Shown: positions 30,001 to 36,000 of the stretch, one piece after another
Position numbering within the stretch: the stretch's first letter is position 1
How the letters are laid out: the number at the start of each line of letters is the position of its first letter
Assembly: GCA_963796455.1 (NCBI GenBank)
Contig: CAWCLO010000001.1
Location: 800,001-864,000 of the forward strand
From: Candidatus Sulfomarinibacteraceae bacterium
Lineage (GTDB): Bacteria > Acidobacteriota > Thermoanaerobaculia > Thermoanaerobaculales > Sulfomarinibacteraceae
Length of the DNA stretch: 64,000 nucleotides
Direction: 5' to 3'
Program-made: the position numbers

Positions 30001-33000
30001 AACGGGCCCTACCGGCTCGTCGTTCGTGAAAAGGGCCGAGTCTCCTCTGCTCCTCTGCTCCTCTGCTCCTCTGCTCCTCTGCTCCTCTGCTCCTCTGCTC
30101 CTCTGCTCCTCTGCTCAATCTGAATCGTCGGATCCCGGCGACTCCCGCGGCGGCACCGGATCGTATCCTCCCGGGTGGAAGGGGTGGCATTTTCCGATGC
30201 GCTTGATGGCCATCCAGACGCCGAGTAGACCGTGGGTCTCGATCGCCTCGGCCGCATAGACCGAACAGGTCGGTTCGAAACGGCACGCCGGCGGCATGAA
30301 CGGCGAAATAAACCGTTTGTAGAAACGGGCCGGAGAAGCGACAACGCGCCACAGCAGACTCATCGGAAGGGTTATTCTACCGAAGTCGAAAAGGAGGCGA
30401 ACAATGAGCGAAAATCGAAACATCATCTCAACCAACGAGGCCCCGGGAGCGGTCGGTCCTTACTCCCAGGCCGTCGCATCCGGCAACTTCGTTTTCACCG
30501 CCGGTCAGATCCCCATCAACCCCGCCAGCGGCCAGATCGAGGCCGAGACCATCGAAGACCAGACCCGGCAGGTGCTGCGCAACGTGGACGGCGTCCTCCG
30601 TGCCGCCGGCAGTGGGCTCAACCGGATCGTCAAGATGACGGTCTTCATGACCGACCTCGGTGATTTTCAGAGGATGAACGGCGTCTATGCGGAGTTTTTT
30701 CCATTCGAACCGCCGGCTCGCTCGGCCGTCCAGGTGGTCGCGTTGCCGCTCGGCGTACAGATCGAGATGGAAGCGGTCGCACTCGCTCCCTGAGCGAACG
30801 AGAGTTCGGAGTTCGGAGTTCAGCGTACCGCTCCGCCGCCACTTGACGGACGGAGAGGTTTTGATCTCCGAACTCCGAACTCCGAACTCTCGCCCTGTTA
30901 TGATCAGCCGGTTTCGCGCCCTGGAGGGAATCGCGTGCAGCAGAGCATCAACTACGAAGAGGTCGGGCTGCGAGTCGGACTCGAAGTCCACCAACAATTG
31001 TTGACCGAAAAAAAGATGTTCTGCCACTGTCCTGCCGGGCTTTACACCCGGGATCACGACGGTTCGGTCCTGCGCCACATGCGACCCACTTTGTCCGAAC
31101 TCGGCGAATACGATGGCACGGCCTTGATGGAGTTCAAGACTCGTAAAAACATCGTGTACCTCCTCCACACCAGCAATGTCTGCACCTATGAAATGGACGA
31201 TACGCCGCCCTTTCTGGTCAATGAACAGGCCATCGACATCGCCATCGAGCAGTGTTTGATGCTCGGCTGCGACATCGTCGACGAGCTGCATATCGCCCGC
31301 AAGCAGTATCTGGATGGGTCCATTCCCACCGGTTTTCAACGCACCGCCATCGTCGGTGTCGAGGGCCGCCTGCCCTTTCGCGGACGCGAGCTGAGCATCA
31401 CCCAGGTCAGTGTCGAGGAAGACTCGTGCCGCGAAGTCTCCGACCGCGGCCACCTCATCGTCTGGCGTACCGATCGGCTCGGAATGCCTTTGATCGAGAC
31501 CGTCACAGGCCCCGAACTCCAGACTCCCGAAGAAGTCGAAGAGGCCATCCTGCTGGTCGGCCGGGTCTGCCGTTCCACCGGTCACGTTCGAGTCGGGATG
31601 GGTGCGAGCCGCCAAGATGTCAACGTGTCCGTCAGAGGCGGTCAGAGGGTCGAGATCAAGGGTGTGCCAAAGGCAGGATGGGCCCCGGGTCTAGTCCACG
31701 GCGAGGCGATCCGTCAGGTCAATCTCCTGGCCCTACGGGATGAACTGCACAATCGGGGATTCAAGATCGCCGATCACATCGTCATCGATCACGCCGAGGT
31801 CACGAACATGGTTTCCGACGCAGCGATCGAACTTTTCAAAGCAACGAACTGGGAGCGGTTCCTCGCCGCGGACGACCGCCGTGCCACCTTCGAACGTGGT
31901 GCGGGGCCGTTCTGCGTCCGCGCCGTGCGTCTGCGAGGCCTCGACGGAACTCTCGGGTGGCCGACGCAGCCGGACCGTGTTTTCGCCGACGAGCTCCGGG
32001 GCCGTGTGAGAGTCATCGCCGGTCTCGATCAGCATCCCGTGATTCTCGACTCGGAAGCATGGCCCGGCGAGAAAGATGCCGGGAGGCTTCTTGCCTCTCT
32101 CCGCTCCCAGATGAATTGCACACCCGATGACGGTCTTGTTGTGGTCTGGGGCCCCGAAAGGGACACCCTGACCGCCGCCGATGAAATCCGTCTCCGCTAT
32201 GTCGATGCCGTTGCAGGCGTACCGCTCGAGACCCGGCAGCCCTTTGTGGACGGCAGCACCGATTTCGAGCGAATCCTCCCCGGTCCGGATCGCATGTACC
32301 CCGATACCGACAGCCCGCCGTTGCGGCTCACTCGCGAGAGAGTCGGAAGACTTTCCGAAACACTTCCGGAAGCACCGTGGTCACGGGAGGCGCGCTACGC
32401 GGCGGCCGGTGTTCCGCGTCATCTCATCCACTACCTGATTCGCCGGGGCGGAGCTCGAATCGTCGACCTGGTCGTCAACGAATCCGACGCCGATCTCCGA
32501 CGTGCCTGCTTTTTCTTTGGCGAGCGGATCAAAGGCCTGCGCCGCAGGGGGCTCCCGGTTGACGAGGTACCCGACCGGGCGTGGTGCGAGTTCTTCACAC
32601 TGGTGACCCGGCAACCGGTGATCTGGGAGGCGTGGCGCGATCTCGTCGAATGGGTCCTGATCCACCCTGACCAAAGCCTCATCGAAGACGCCGCGACCGC
32701 CGGTTTCGGGGCCCCCGACGGGGACTGGCGTGAAACGGTCATCGGTCTGACCGAAGGACGGAGCCCGGACCACGACGACGGCAGCCTCGATCAGCGTCAC
32801 CGATTTCTGATGGGTCTGGTCATGGACGAGCTTCGCGGTCGTGTGAAGGCAACCGAGATCGCACCGATTCTCCGTGAGTTCGAGCCCGAGAACGAAATGA
32901 GTGGGAGGAGACCATGAGCGAAACAGAACGAGATCCACTCAAAGGGTATCGGGGACGGGCCAGAGAACTGCTCGGCCGCCTCGGGGTCGAGGTCTGGTCT

Positions 33001-36000
33001 GACGTCCGCCTCGAGAATTCCGCCGGCAGCGTTTTCGAGGGCGTTATCCTCCCCAGGTCGGGGAATTTCGACGATCTCCACATCGTGCTCAAACTCAAGA
33101 CCGGCTACAACGTCGGCGTCCACGTCGACCGGGTCAGGTCGATCCAATCGCTCGGATACAAGGAAGCAATCTACAAGATCCCCGAACAGGAATTCCCCAG
33201 CCGCCCCGATCTTCCAAAGGTCACACTCCTCGGCACCGGCGGGACGATCGCGTCGAGGCTGGACTACCGAACCGGTGCGGTGATTCCGGCCTTCACCCCG
33301 GGCGAGCTTTACGGCGCCGTTCCCGAGCTTGCCGACATCTGCAACCTGACCACAAAAAAGATCTTTGGCGTCTTTTCCGAGAACATGGGGTGGTCGGAAT
33401 ATGTTGCCCTCGCCGAAAACATCGGCAGCGAGGTCGAAGCCGGAGCGGATGGCATCGTCATAGGTCACGGCACCGACACAATGGGTCACACGGCTGCAGT
33501 CCTGAGCTTCATGGTTCAACAGTCCCCGGTGCCGATCGTTCTGGTCGGAAGCCAACGATCCTCGGATCGACCTTCTTCGGATGCCGCACTCAATCTCATC
33601 CACGCAGTACGGTTTGCCGCCCTGGGCGACATTGCCGAAGTCCAGATCTGCATGTTCGGTCCGACCTCGGATCGCTACGGACTACTCCATCGCGGCACCC
33701 GATGCCGCAAAATGCATTCCTCCTATCGCAGCACCTTCCGAACCATCGGCGACATCCCCTTGTGCCGGGTCAGCAGCGACGATTTCACGATGCTGACTGA
33801 TGATTATCTTCGCCGGGACCCGACTCGGAAGATCCAAATCGACACCGCCTACGACGACCGGGTGACGATTCTCTACTACTACCCCGGCATGAAACCCGAT
33901 CTTGTCGATGCACTGGTCGAGAAGGGGTACCGGGGAATCGTCATCGCCGGCACCGGCCTCGGGCACGTCAACGGGCCGCTTTACCCCGCTCTCGAACGAG
34001 CCGTTGCGGCAGGAGTCCACATTGTCATGACGGTCCAGACCCTGTGGGGTTTCGCGCAGATGTACGTCTATGAGACCGGACGCGACCTGCTCGATATCGG
34101 CGTTGTTCCGCTCGAGAACATGCTGCCGGAAACAGCTCTCATGAAGCTCGGCTGGGTATTGGGACACACCGACGACCACGACCGGGTCCTCGAGATGATG
34201 CGCGAAGCCATCAGCCACGAGATCACCGAGCGGGAGCCCCACAACGGATACCTGATTCTCCAGGGCGGCCTTCCAGAGACCGAGGAGTTCACCTCGTCTC
34301 ACTGGAAATGATCTTGACCAATCAGTGCCGGAGGCGGACGTTCTGCGGGCTGGCTATAGAACAATTCGACCGCTCGAGGACATACTCTTCCCGAGCCAGA
34401 GCGAGATTCGAGGGCTCATAGAGCGGAAGATACACCCGTTCCTCATCAAGCTCCCGCAGAGCCTGCTGGAGTAGATCGAGCCGCAGCGCGTAGTGTGATT
34501 CGTGGGCGGCAGCTTCAATCAGCCCGTCCAATTTCGAATTCGAAAGCACCGCACCGTTAAACGCGCCCAATCCGCGTTCGGAATCGCGGCTGTGGACGAT
34601 GGTGTCGAGAAATGGTGAGGCATCGGCGACGCGAAAGGTCCACGAGAAGATCGAGAGTTGATTCGCAGATTCTCCGAGGCGGCGGTAAAAATCATCATAG
34701 GCAAGGGTTCGAGTCTCGATCGTGAATCCAAGATCTTCCAGTACATCGGCGAGAACCAGTGCCACATCCGAATATGCGGCATGGAACACGATCTCGAGCA
34801 CCGTGCCCGCCGGCAGTTGAGCCTCTTGAAGCAGCGCCCGCGCCTCTTCGATGTCGGAGCCCCGGTGCCTTAGTTCGGGACTGAATCCGAAAATTTCCGG
34901 TGGGATCACCGACCAGGCGGCCCGCGCCGTACCTTCGGGAAAAACTTCGGCCACAAGCGACGAACGGTCGATTGCGAGATCGATGGCGCGGCGAACTCTT
35001 TGATTGGCAAGTGGTCCGCTGGAGACATTCAGCGCGAGGAAGGTGGTCGTGACAGCCGGACTGGCAACGAGTTGCCACCCTTCCTTGAGCGGGTGTTCTC
35101 TGACGTGACCCACCGTCACCGAGGTGGCGACGTCGATACCATCTTCTTGCAGAAGGCGGACCAACTCTTCTGAGCTCGTTGCGAACTGCAGACTGACCTC
35201 CTCGAAATCCGGTCGTGTGTTCCAATAGCGCGCCCAACTGCGGAGGGTGATCGGTCCGCTGAGCGACCCAATCTCCCACCGATAGGGCCCGGTACCAACT
35301 GGTCGTCCGGGATCAAAATCCCGGGGAACGATCGCCACCGCTTCGAGCTGAGTCAACAACAGTGGCGAAGGACGAATGGTGGCGATTTCAATCATTCCAT
35401 CGTCGAACTCATCCACCCGCACATGCTCGATGTCGGCCAATTGGTGGCCAACGAACTGACTCTGGCAAGCCCGTTTGATGGACGCGACCACGTCCTCCGC
35501 CATCAGCTCCCGACCATCGTGAAAGAAAACCCCGCTCCGAATGTGAAGCCTCCAGGTGAGGTGGTCGGGATTGTCCCAACGGTCGGCCAGCCACGGCCGG
35601 ATCGGACGCCCGGGATCAAAGCGCACCAGCCCTTCATAAACGGACGAAAGAACTGCTCGGGAGACGCTGTCGGAGTGGGCATGGGGATCCATCGTCACGA
35701 TCTCATAAGGAAACGCCATTCGAAGCCGTGTCGGGCTTTCGGTCTCTTGTGGACAACCGTAGGCGGCCACAAGAGCCATGGTAAGAAGGATCCGCATTCT
35801 CATGTGACCGGCATTTTAACCCGGTCTTCTCATCGATGTCAGTGATTCTGATCTCGATCGCATTGAAGCGTCCGATGGACCCGCCGCGGCTCGATCTCAG
35901 AGTTGAGAAATCTCGTCACGTACCGGATTCGTCAACGAGCCAAGACCGTCGATTTCGACGGTGACCTCGTTGCCCGGCAACAAGGGACCAACCCCCGACG

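What a model noticed while it worked through the whole genome (the two positions that open the first line are those of the whole stretch)
30935..34311. Archaeal-type GatDE tRNA amidotransferase operon in a bacterium, one of a widespread bacterial GatDE clade that already [...]
g00692-g00693 are an intact, overlapping gatE-gatD operon (660 + 465 aa), although GatDE is described as archaea-only. It is in half of the order Thermoanaerobaculales, which has no GatCAB at all, and in many other bacterial phyla, mostly in genomes that also encode GlnRS and AsnRS. It is therefore not needed for routine Gln-tRNA supply and likely has another substrate or a proofreading role.
Evidence so far: Both genes pass archaeal equivalog cut-offs TIGR00134 and TIGR02153. 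GatE over cut in 59 of 119 order genomes; gatB in 0 of 119; AsnRS in 109 of 119; GlnRS g04248 present here. GTDB scan: 578 matching stretches; the 79 loci kept come from Acidobacteriota, Myxococcales, Planctomycetota, Ignavibacteria, Calditrichota, Aminicenantes, Zixibacteria, Cloacimonetes and others, with gatD beside gatE in 70 of 79. Of 50 carriers: GlnRS 38, AsnRS 39, GatB 21. Full-length alignment to P. abyssi and M. thermautotrophicus GatE/GatD with the GLEVH, EED and GTGGT/HGTDT motifs kept. GatD_N is in 1.6% of bacterial species (relatives.tsv, call 12).
(Added by a program. Inside this text positions count along the whole contig: contig position 800,001 is position 1 of the stretch shown here. 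"Call 12" and the like, gene names such as g00115 and contig names such as C1 are that model's own, and its searches are not shown. The text may have been shortened before it was handed on; [...] marks where a part breaks off. The agent that wrote the report below was given it as the finding of a first reader that could run no searches.)

Follow-up and report, generated by a model that had tools for sequence, protein, structure and literature searches.

The report
Bacterial GatDE that replaces asparagine synthetase
This bacterium carries an intact copy of GatDE, an enzyme that reviews call archaea-only and glutamine-specific; in related bacteria the gene pair trades places with the asparagine synthetase gene asnA at the same chromosomal spot, which suggests that bacteria have repurposed it to make asparagine.

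Summary
The intact gatE-gatD operon is confirmed. This scan found bacterial GatDE before on other DNA; the new result is a functional clue. In the 119 genomes of the order, GatE (63) and asparagine synthetase AsnA (37) share one genome, a contaminated bin. In 3 of 3 genus-mate asnA loci fetched, asnA sits exactly in the gatE-gatD slot. The state switches at least 15 times on an AspRS tree of 89 genomes. In 301 genomes of a second class, GatD again avoids AsnA (2 shared, 7.9 expected), is enriched where GatB is missing (30 of 45 versus 38 of 256) and goes with GlnRS (65 of 68) rather than replacing it. Best reading (0.66): GatDE supplies asparagine, amidating free Asp (0.36) or Asp-tRNA(Asn) (0.30). 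Against: no activity test; 7 GatE genomes also have AsnB; 9 near-complete genomes have no route found; an archaeal-labelled sister shares the altered motifs. The direction of transfer is unresolved. Testable in an E. coli asnA asnB auxotroph.

The parts
30935..32917 (+). gatE, 660 aa: kinase/amidase subunit. Catalytic cradle (about 5-270 and 426-465), AspRS-like insertion (about 271-425), helical and tail domains (about 466-650). Mg2+ ligands H19, E161, E188 (M. thermautotrophicus H15, E157, E184) are kept; Pro245 replaces archaeal Gln240.
   Evidence: ligand numbering from PMC2330236
32914..34311 (+). gatD, 465 aa: asparaginase-type amide-donor hydrolase with GatD_N domain. GTGGT, HGTDT and RKMHS motifs are intact and near-invariant in 125 full-length bacterial copies. 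ATGA overlap with gatE.
30404..30793 (+). Rid-family deaminase gene; left border of the slot that holds gatE-gatD here and asnA in AsnA-type genus-mates
34322..35803 (-). family 5 solute-binding protein gene; right border of the swapped slot
35897..36679 (-). FAA-hydrolase-family gene; conserved right flank of the slot in two genera
30799..30892 (.). long inverted repeat of tandem heptamers between the Rid gene and gatE; role unknown
   Evidence: predicted -60.6 kcal/mol, no shuffle control

Best explanation
The operon encodes a bacterial branch of GatDE that has become an asparagine-supplying enzyme, a non-orthologous stand-in for AsnA. Shown here: both genes are intact, the catalytic residues are kept, and the pair displaces asnA in place in genomes that already have GlnRS and AsnRS and, in this order, no GatCAB. 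Inferred from the family's known chemistry: GatD releases ammonia from glutamine, a tunnel carries it to GatE, and GatE uses ATP and Mg2+ to phosphorylate a side-chain carboxylate and amidate it. Inferred from the gene pattern: the acceptor is aspartate, not glutamate. I slightly favour free aspartate, with AsnRS then loading the free Asn (0.36), over Asp-tRNA(Asn) (0.30, first rival). The confidence given covers both routes.
For: (1) Order, 119 genomes: GatE 63, AsnA 37, both 1 (G033: 8.7 Mb, 1700 contigs, 7% contamination), neither 20. In the four mixed genera expected overlap is 10.8 and seen is 0. (2) Same slot: asnA lies between the Rid and SBP genes in 3 of 3 genus-mate loci, with no gatE/gatD remnant. 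It lies between the Rid and FAA genes in 3 of 3 loci of a second genus, where 2 of 2 GatE loci have gatE-gatD. In a third genus, 3 of 3 asnA loci and 2 of 2 gatED loci lie near the same membrane-protein gene. (3) At least 15 state changes on an AspRS tree of 89 genomes. In 14 independent pairs differing in GatE, AsnA went the opposite way about 9 times and the same way 0 times (sign test p about 0.004). (4) The slot asnA genes score 288-302 bits on TIGR00669 (cut-off 292.8; 2 of 4 above). (5) Class of G153 (locus titled Ignavibacteria), 301 genomes: GatD with AsnA 2 against 7.9 expected (p 0.009). Among GlnRS carriers, 34 of 39 without GatB have GatD or AsnA, against 43 of 123 with GatB. In GlnRS+AsnRS bacteria GatCAB is thought to be kept for Asn synthesis (PMC4206432). 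(6) The three AsnB-like genes here fall far below the AsnB equivalog cut-off and score best on a polysaccharide amidotransferase model. (7) For free Asp: AsnRS is in 49 of 50 carriers, including 25 of 25 without GatB, as is the rule for AsnA (PMC4206432). No AspRS column separates GatE from AsnA genomes in the own genus (13 vs 7). Helical and tail domains are less conserved than in the archaeal set although the core is more conserved.
Against: No activity was measured. 7 of 63 GatE genomes also carry true AsnB, and 9 genomes at least 90% complete have no GatE, AsnA, AsnB or GatB match, so neither exclusivity nor need is absolute. asnA sits beside gatE in 2 of 172 loci (L122, L404), which could mean that Asn is fed to GatD as donor. 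GatD and GatB co-occur in 38 of 68 class genomes and 25 of 50 other carriers. No shared slot was seen among the 20 loci fetched from the second class, and kinship could not be controlled there. The helical and tail domains, the tail MG..M...RGR core and the basic loop before RQD are kept, which argues for continued tRNA binding. I recall no GatB/GatE acting on a free amino acid. A protein labelled Thermoplasmata archaeon (P0482) is sister to the bacterial clade and shares the Gln-to-Pro change, so the motif changes need not mark a substrate switch.
Confidence: 0.66

Rival explanations
1. Same product, tRNA-bound route (included in the 0.66 above). A mildly non-discriminating AspRS makes Asp-tRNA(Asn), and GatDE, re-aimed at the bacterial U1-A72 tRNA, converts it to Asn-tRNA(Asn), as GatCAB does in Bdellovibrio and Deinococcus.
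For: All tRNA-binding domains are kept and fold confidently. tRNA(Asn) is U1-A72 here and in 5 of 5 AsnA-type relatives. AspRS has Gly at the place where P. aeruginosa non-discriminating AspRS has Gly. GatD is enriched where GatB is missing. aspS lies directly upstream of gatE in L108 and tRNA(Asn) beside it in L411. Mischarged Asp-tRNA(Asn) is said to escape EF-Tu (PMC1635274), so sisters without an amidotransferase could tolerate it.
Against: AspRS does not co-vary with GatDE over at least 15 swaps and has Leu where P. aeruginosa has His. No GatB-less carrier lacks AsnRS (25 of 25), while 98 of 254 GlnRS-bearing genera in PMC4206432 lack it. Models say the GatE insertion clashes with AspRS (PMC2943598, PMC2330236).
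Confidence: 0.3
2. Ancestral job kept: a backup or proofreading Glu-tRNA(Gln) amidotransferase that repairs tRNA(Gln) mischarged by GluRS or GlnRS.
For: Strong co-occurrence with GlnRS (65 of 68). glnS adjoins the operon in 3 of 172 loci, a tRNA(Gln) gene in 2 (plus one altered copy), and a glutamine synthetase-family gene lies within 7 loci. 2 of 24 tested GatB-less carriers (G149, G152; small bins of unknown completeness) show no GlnRS. The archaeal-labelled sister shares the motifs.
Against: It does not explain the exclusion of, or slot swap with, asnA. GatD is nearly absent where a Glu-amidotransferase is essential (3 of 139 GlnRS-less genomes). tRNA(Gln) here is U1-A72, not the archaeal A1-U72. 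GluRS has the Arg358 equivalent. PMC4206432 states that no bacterium was known to encode both routes to Gln-tRNA.
Confidence: 0.14
3. Another role in amide-nitrogen handling (ammonia capture or storage together with the divergent glutamine synthetase-family protein, or amidation of an unknown acceptor) that makes AsnA dispensable only indirectly.
For: Neighbours include a divergent glutamine synthetase-family gene (7 of 172 loci) and amt (3 of 172); this genome has the same divergent family elsewhere. The catalytic core and GatD are very strongly conserved. An earlier scan note reads the synthetase neighbour as the donor supply (e1-5254687).
Against: No conserved partner gene: no neighbour family exceeds 8 of 172 loci, and no chance control was run for these neighbours. 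One-for-one exchange with asnA is most simply read as the same product.
Confidence: 0.15
4. The exclusion is a positional or lineage accident: two unrelated cassettes compete for one insertion site.
For: In the order both genes share one slot, so replacing one removes the other mechanically.
Against: Exclusion also holds in a second class where no shared slot was seen, and for order genomes whose AsnA is of a different type. Loss of GatB is tied to having GatD or AsnA.
Confidence: 0.05

Closest known systems
Archaeal GatDE, Glu-tRNA(Gln) amidotransferase (M. thermautotrophicus PDB 2D6F, P. abyssi PDB 1ZQ1)
   Same: Two subunits, full domain order, fold (Foldseek E 2e-47 and 5e-44), GatE Mg2+ ligands and GatD catalytic motifs.
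   Different: Bacterial host with GlnRS; tRNA(Gln) is U1-A72; Gln240 is Pro in 78% of 125 clade rows; insertion domain has its own conserved motifs; no Pfam GAD or GatB_Yqey match here; exchanges with asnA.
GatCAB acting as Asp-amidotransferase beside AsnRS and GlnRS (Bdellovibrio, Deinococcus, Thermus; PMC4206432)
   Same: Inferred role: Asn supply in a genome that has both direct synthetases and no true Asn synthetase.
   Different: GatE/GatD rather than GatB/GatA/GatC; no second AspRS here and no AspRS co-variation.
AsnA (aspartate-ammonia ligase) and AsnB (glutamine-dependent asparagine synthetase)
   Same: Same chromosomal slot and complementary distribution with AsnA; near-universal company of AsnRS; glutaminase-plus-synthetase layout like AsnB (inferred).
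   Different: Unrelated folds; acyl-phosphate rather than adenylate chemistry (from family knowledge); no exclusion with AsnB (7 of 63).
GatE of Heimdallarchaeota and of a small clade with one member labelled Thermoplasmata archaeon (P0482)
   Same: Nearest relatives in the tree (SH-aLRT 98 and 100); they share the RHMRPTLSELGEYD and RKQYLDGSIP motifs.
   Different: Heimdallarchaeota keep Gln240, GAD and YqeY matches; their activities are untested too.

Membership tests
GatDE (archaeal Glu-AdT) | GatE and GatD pass the curated family cut-offs | tested here: met
   TIGR00134, TIGR02153 and NF003217 passed; NF003107 missed narrowly, 436 vs 456
GatDE (archaeal Glu-AdT) | GatE kinase ligands His15, Glu157, Glu184 | tested here: met
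   H19, E161, E188; invariant in alignments A1 and A2
GatDE (archaeal Glu-AdT) | GatD type I asparaginase fold with Thr nucleophile, Thr-Lys-Asp triad and GatD_N domain | tested here: met
   assignment of single triad residues to the motifs is recalled
GatDE (archaeal Glu-AdT) | AspRS-like insertion and YqeY-like tail in GatE | tested here: inconclusive
   Present by alignment and model but no Pfam GAD or GatB_Yqey match and different motifs
GatDE (archaeal Glu-AdT) | [quoted passage not shown] | tested here: not met
   Absent here; regex hits 5 of 93 bacterial-locus rows and 0 of 32 clade representatives, but also only 11 of 68 outgroup representatives and 6 of 15 named archaeal rows, so it is a weak marker
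GatDE (archaeal Glu-AdT) | Host tRNA(Gln) with A1-U72 | tested here: not met
   Both tRNA(Gln) are U1-A72; assembly is 90.5% complete
GatDE (archaeal Glu-AdT) | Host lacks GlnRS and depends on a non-discriminating GluRS | tested here: not met
   GlnRS present; GluRS has the R358 equivalent
GatDE (archaeal Glu-AdT) | Amidates Glu-tRNA(Gln) only | not testable with these tools
   needs an assay
Asp-AdT pathway (GatCAB-like function) | tRNA(Asn) with U1-A72 | tested here: met
   equally true in AsnA-type relatives, so not discriminating
Asp-AdT pathway (GatCAB-like function) | Non-discriminating AspRS | tested here: inconclusive
   Leu at the His site, Gly at the Gly site; no co-variation; no second AspRS. 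The meaning of these sites is recalled; a paper search found none
GatCAB | GatB passing its cut-off | tested here: not met
   110 bits vs 314.8 on TIGR00133; the only GatB_N match in the genome is this GatE
Asparagine synthetase (functional analog of AsnA) | Complementary distribution and gene displacement with asnA | tested here: met
Asparagine synthetase (functional analog of AsnA) | Forms Asn from free Asp and ATP | not testable with these tools
   needs an assay

The most novel reading that the evidence does not exclude
Bacterial GatDE is a tRNA-independent, glutamine-dependent asparagine synthetase built from the GatE kinase fold and a type I asparaginase: a translation enzyme turned into a metabolic one, interchangeable with asnA as a drop-in cassette across many bacterial phyla.
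Probability: 0.36. Interest if true: 0.92.

Novelty: new variant of a known kind. Interest (0 to 1): 0.82.

Why it matters
Papers from 2006 to 2022 call GatDE archaea-only and Glu-tRNA(Gln)-specific (passages). Public databases already label bacterial copies GatE, so they are read as a glutamine route. If the asparagine reading holds, it adds an unrecognised route to asparagine in bacteria, fills a pathway hole in many uncultured lineages, and gives a natural case of a GatB/GatE enzyme changing its amino acid and perhaps dropping tRNA. It also bears on why archaea keep two amidotransferases and on the claim that GatDE was in LUCA and lost from bacteria. One complementation plate can test it.

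Tried and rejected
Real AsnRS loss in this genome: rejected, the whole region is missing from the assembly. Recent foreign island: not supported, GC and GC3 match the flanks and synteny is shared with genus-mates. GatDE as a GlnRS replacement: rejected as the general role. AspRS signature tracking GatDE: none in 42 vs 34 genomes or in 32 stretches fetched from other carriers. tRNA(Asn) first-pair drift in AsnA genomes: none in 5 of 5. A dedicated tRNA upstream of gatE: only scattered cases; a relaxed ARAGORN run gave noise. G167 as an AsnRS-less carrier with an archaeal-type AspRS: it has a partial AsnRS at a contig end. A conserved partner gene: none. Direction of transfer: the free tree nests the bacterial clade among archaeal rows, but a tree holding all 31 non-bacterial GatE rows together is not rejected (p-AU 0.54). 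Most outgroup representatives remain unlabelled by taxon. Sheppard and Soll 2008 (PMC2366055) is not held.
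Full report
Verdict. I read the enzyme as an asparagine supplier (0.66). No activity was measured.

The genes. gatE (30935-32917, 660 aa) and gatD (32914-34311, 465 aa) are intact, overlap by ATGA and have ribosome sites. 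They pass TIGR00134, TIGR02153 and NF003217 and narrowly miss NF003107. Their best solved relatives are P. abyssi and M. thermautotrophicus GatE and GatD. The three Mg2+ ligands named in PMC2330236 map to H19, E161 and E188 and are invariant in 85 and 31 aligned rows. The model has pLDDT 94 and matches 1zq1 and 2d6f first. Base composition matches the flanks.

The host genome (5.0 Mb, 90.5% complete). It has GluRS and GlnRS side by side, one bacterial AspRS, two glutamine synthetase-family genes, no GatB and no AsnA. Its three AsnB-like proteins score 262-334 bits against the AsnB equivalog cut-off of 499 and score best on a polysaccharide amidotransferase model, though they pass the broad TIGR01536. 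Both tRNA(Gln) and tRNA(Asn) begin U1-A72; archaeal GatDE reads A1-U72. AsnRS is missing only because its region is missing: the trp operon, ksgA and nadE (named by reading the translations) flank asnS in 3 of 3 relatives and have no orthologs here.

Exclusion with AsnA in the order. Of 119 genomes, 63 match GatE, 37 match AsnA, 1 has both and 20 have neither. The one with both (G033) is 8.7 Mb in 1700 contigs, 7% contaminated, with two GatE copies and a different AsnA type. In the four genera holding both kinds (64 genomes) the expected overlap is 10.8 and none is seen. I chose 90 of the 111 genomes with AspRS, G033 not among them, for a tree and dropped one outlying row. The state changes at least 15 times. 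In 14 independent pairs that differ in GatE, AsnA goes the opposite way about 9 times and never the same way (p about 0.004). Against: true AsnB occurs in 10 of 119, 7 of them GatE genomes. Ten of the 20 'neither' genomes are at least 90% complete, and 9 of these have no AsnB either.

Same slot. I fetched 10 asnA and 7 gatE loci. In the own genus, 3 of 3 asnA loci read kinase-FAA-SBP-asnA-Rid-yidD: asnA exactly where gatE-gatD lies here, on the other strand, with no remnant. In a second genus asnA (3 of 3) or gatED (2 of 2) lies between the Rid and FAA genes. In a third, from the other family, 3 asnA and 2 gatED loci lie within about 4 kb of the same membrane-protein gene. One asnA locus ended at a contig break and one gatE locus showed no flank from my reference set. 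Four slot asnA proteins score 288-302 bits on TIGR00669 (cut-off 292.8).

Second lineage. In 301 genomes (at least 85% complete) of the class of G153, whose locus is titled Ignavibacteria, GatD passes in 68, AsnA in 35, GatB matches in 256 and GlnRS in 162. GatD and AsnA share 2 genomes against 7.9 expected (p 0.009). GatD is in 30 of 45 GatB-less genomes against 38 of 256. GlnRS is in 65 of 68 GatD genomes against 97 of 233, but in only 14 of 35 AsnA genomes. Among GlnRS genomes, 34 of 39 without GatB have GatD or AsnA, against 43 of 123 with GatB. These p-values ignore kinship, AsnB was not searched here, and no shared slot appeared in 20 loci.

Other carriers. I picked 50 of the 79 GTDB loci outside the order; completeness is not given. 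AsnA is in 5 (4 full, all with GatB), GatB in 25, and AsnRS in 49, five of them partial or split (4 confirmed by family scan). GlnRS is in 22 of 24 GatB-less carriers tested. In 172 loci gatD accompanies gatE in 129 of 133 with room. Neighbours: glutamine synthetase family 7, glnS 3, amt 3, asnA 2, aspS 1, tRNA(Gln) 2 plus one altered copy, tRNA(Asn) 1; no chance control was run.

Sequence changes. Against 83 outgroup rows, the 125 clade rows have Pro for Gln240 (78% vs Gln 96%), their own insertion-domain motifs, and Tyr and Pro in the RKxY...P stretch as GatB has. That Gln240 contacts the first base pair is recalled; PMC2811023 places the pair in this region. Mean identity among representatives (32 vs 68) is 0.60 vs 0.51 in the cradle, 0.33 vs 0.35 in the insertion, 0.21 vs 0.25 in the helical domain and 0.20 vs 0.28 in the tail. 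The tail core and basic loop remain. These changes are weak evidence: the core motifs are shared with Heimdallarchaeota, the Pro with a protein labelled Thermoplasmata, and the GxxAxG motif is patchy among archaeal rows.

Origin. A quick IQ-TREE run (57 rows after dropping 16 for time, SH-aLRT only, GatB root) gives one clade for the 13 bacterial-locus rows plus 7 unlabelled rows (99). Its sister is the Thermoplasmata-labelled group (100), then Heimdallarchaeota (98). An AU test does not reject holding all non-bacterial rows together (p 0.54), so transfer from archaea is plausible but not shown. Myxococcales and Deltaproteobacteria rows fall within or right beside this order's rows, which points to transfer among bacteria.

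Mechanism. Shown: intact catalytic machinery, displacement of asnA, company of GlnRS and AsnRS. Inferred: GatD frees ammonia from Gln and GatE phosphorylates and amidates aspartate. Free Asp (0.36) fits the drop-in swapping without AspRS change and the near-universal AsnRS, which PMC4206432 notes for AsnA. Asp-tRNA(Asn) (0.30) fits the retained tRNA-binding domains, the trade-off with GatB, and the escape of mischarged tRNA from EF-Tu. A Glu-tRNA(Gln) backup (0.14) fits the GlnRS link but not the asnA pattern. The GlnRS link may reflect that GatCAB is dispensable only where GlnRS and AsnRS exist.

Literature. I saw passages of PMC2811023, PMC2943598, PMC2330236, PMC8007984, PMC9499178, PMC9026213 and PMC1635274, and the abstract, passages and sections 16-17 of PMC4206432. 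No supplements were read; those of PMC4206432 list genomes by pathway and could bear on base rates. Sheppard and Soll 2008 is not held, and Oshikane 2006 was seen only as cited. Searches of the open library showed no paper on bacterial GatDE or its link to AsnA; only listings were seen for most hits and subscription journals are not covered. NCBI and JGI already name these proteins GatE. I stated my asparagine reading before seeing earlier scan notes. One note (e1-6935163) suggests Asn on tRNA for another genome, and one (e1-5254687) has asnA alternating with a glutamine synthetase beside gatED. These are unchecked notes, not support.

Scores. Interest 0.82; new variant of a known kind. The bolder case, a tRNA-independent asparagine synthetase from the GatE fold, has probability 0.36 and would deserve 0.92.

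Noticed in passing
G000, e.g. C1:256351-256900 (outside the window); short matches near window 12160-12298 and 53690-53800: A dispersed repeat of about 550 bp with 66 long copies (86% identity or more) encodes a small protein that looks like a four-helix-bundle/IVP family member (label recalled, not scanned). It causes the false tRNA-Asp calls of ARAGORN.
   Followed up: partly
window 30799-30892: Long inverted repeat of tandem heptamers between the Rid gene and gatE; possibly a scar of a repeat-flanked mobile gene.
   Followed up: partly
L088:4188-4263 and L087:7857-7931: A tRNA(Gln)-like gene directly upstream of gatE in two Holophagaceae-type loci; in L088 the anticodon reads CUA with C at position 37, so it may be a non-decoding or amber-reading tRNA.
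   Followed up: no
G000 C3:59015-60544; L075, L083, L098, L404, L466, L468: A divergent glutamine synthetase-family protein, far below the GlnA cut-off, often beside gatED in other phyla; this genome has it at an unlinked site.
   Followed up: partly
class of G153, e.g. G244, G287, G358, G365: GatB scores are low more often in GatD genomes (11 of 38 weaker than 1e-155, against 5 of 218; counted by eye), as if GatCAB diverges once GatDE is present; may be one lineage.
   Followed up: no
L108:2694-6420: aspS directly upstream of gatE with no gatD in the locus.
   Followed up: no
L259 (G167), L295 (G131): Archaeal-type aspartate-tRNA(Asn) ligase in two bacterial GatE carriers.
   Followed up: partly
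L140-L149, L358-L367: The slot asnA proteins form a divergent AsnA subtype shared with Ignavibacteria, scoring right at the TIGR00669 cut-off.
   Followed up: partly
window 36779-41989 (-): 1736-aa protein that reads as TPR, Ser/Thr kinase, WD40 and HEAT-like repeats by eye; conserved next to the slot in genus-mates.
   Followed up: no
G000 C3:90076-91018: EpmA-like gene (label by reading) split over two frames; frameshift or assembly error.
   Followed up: no
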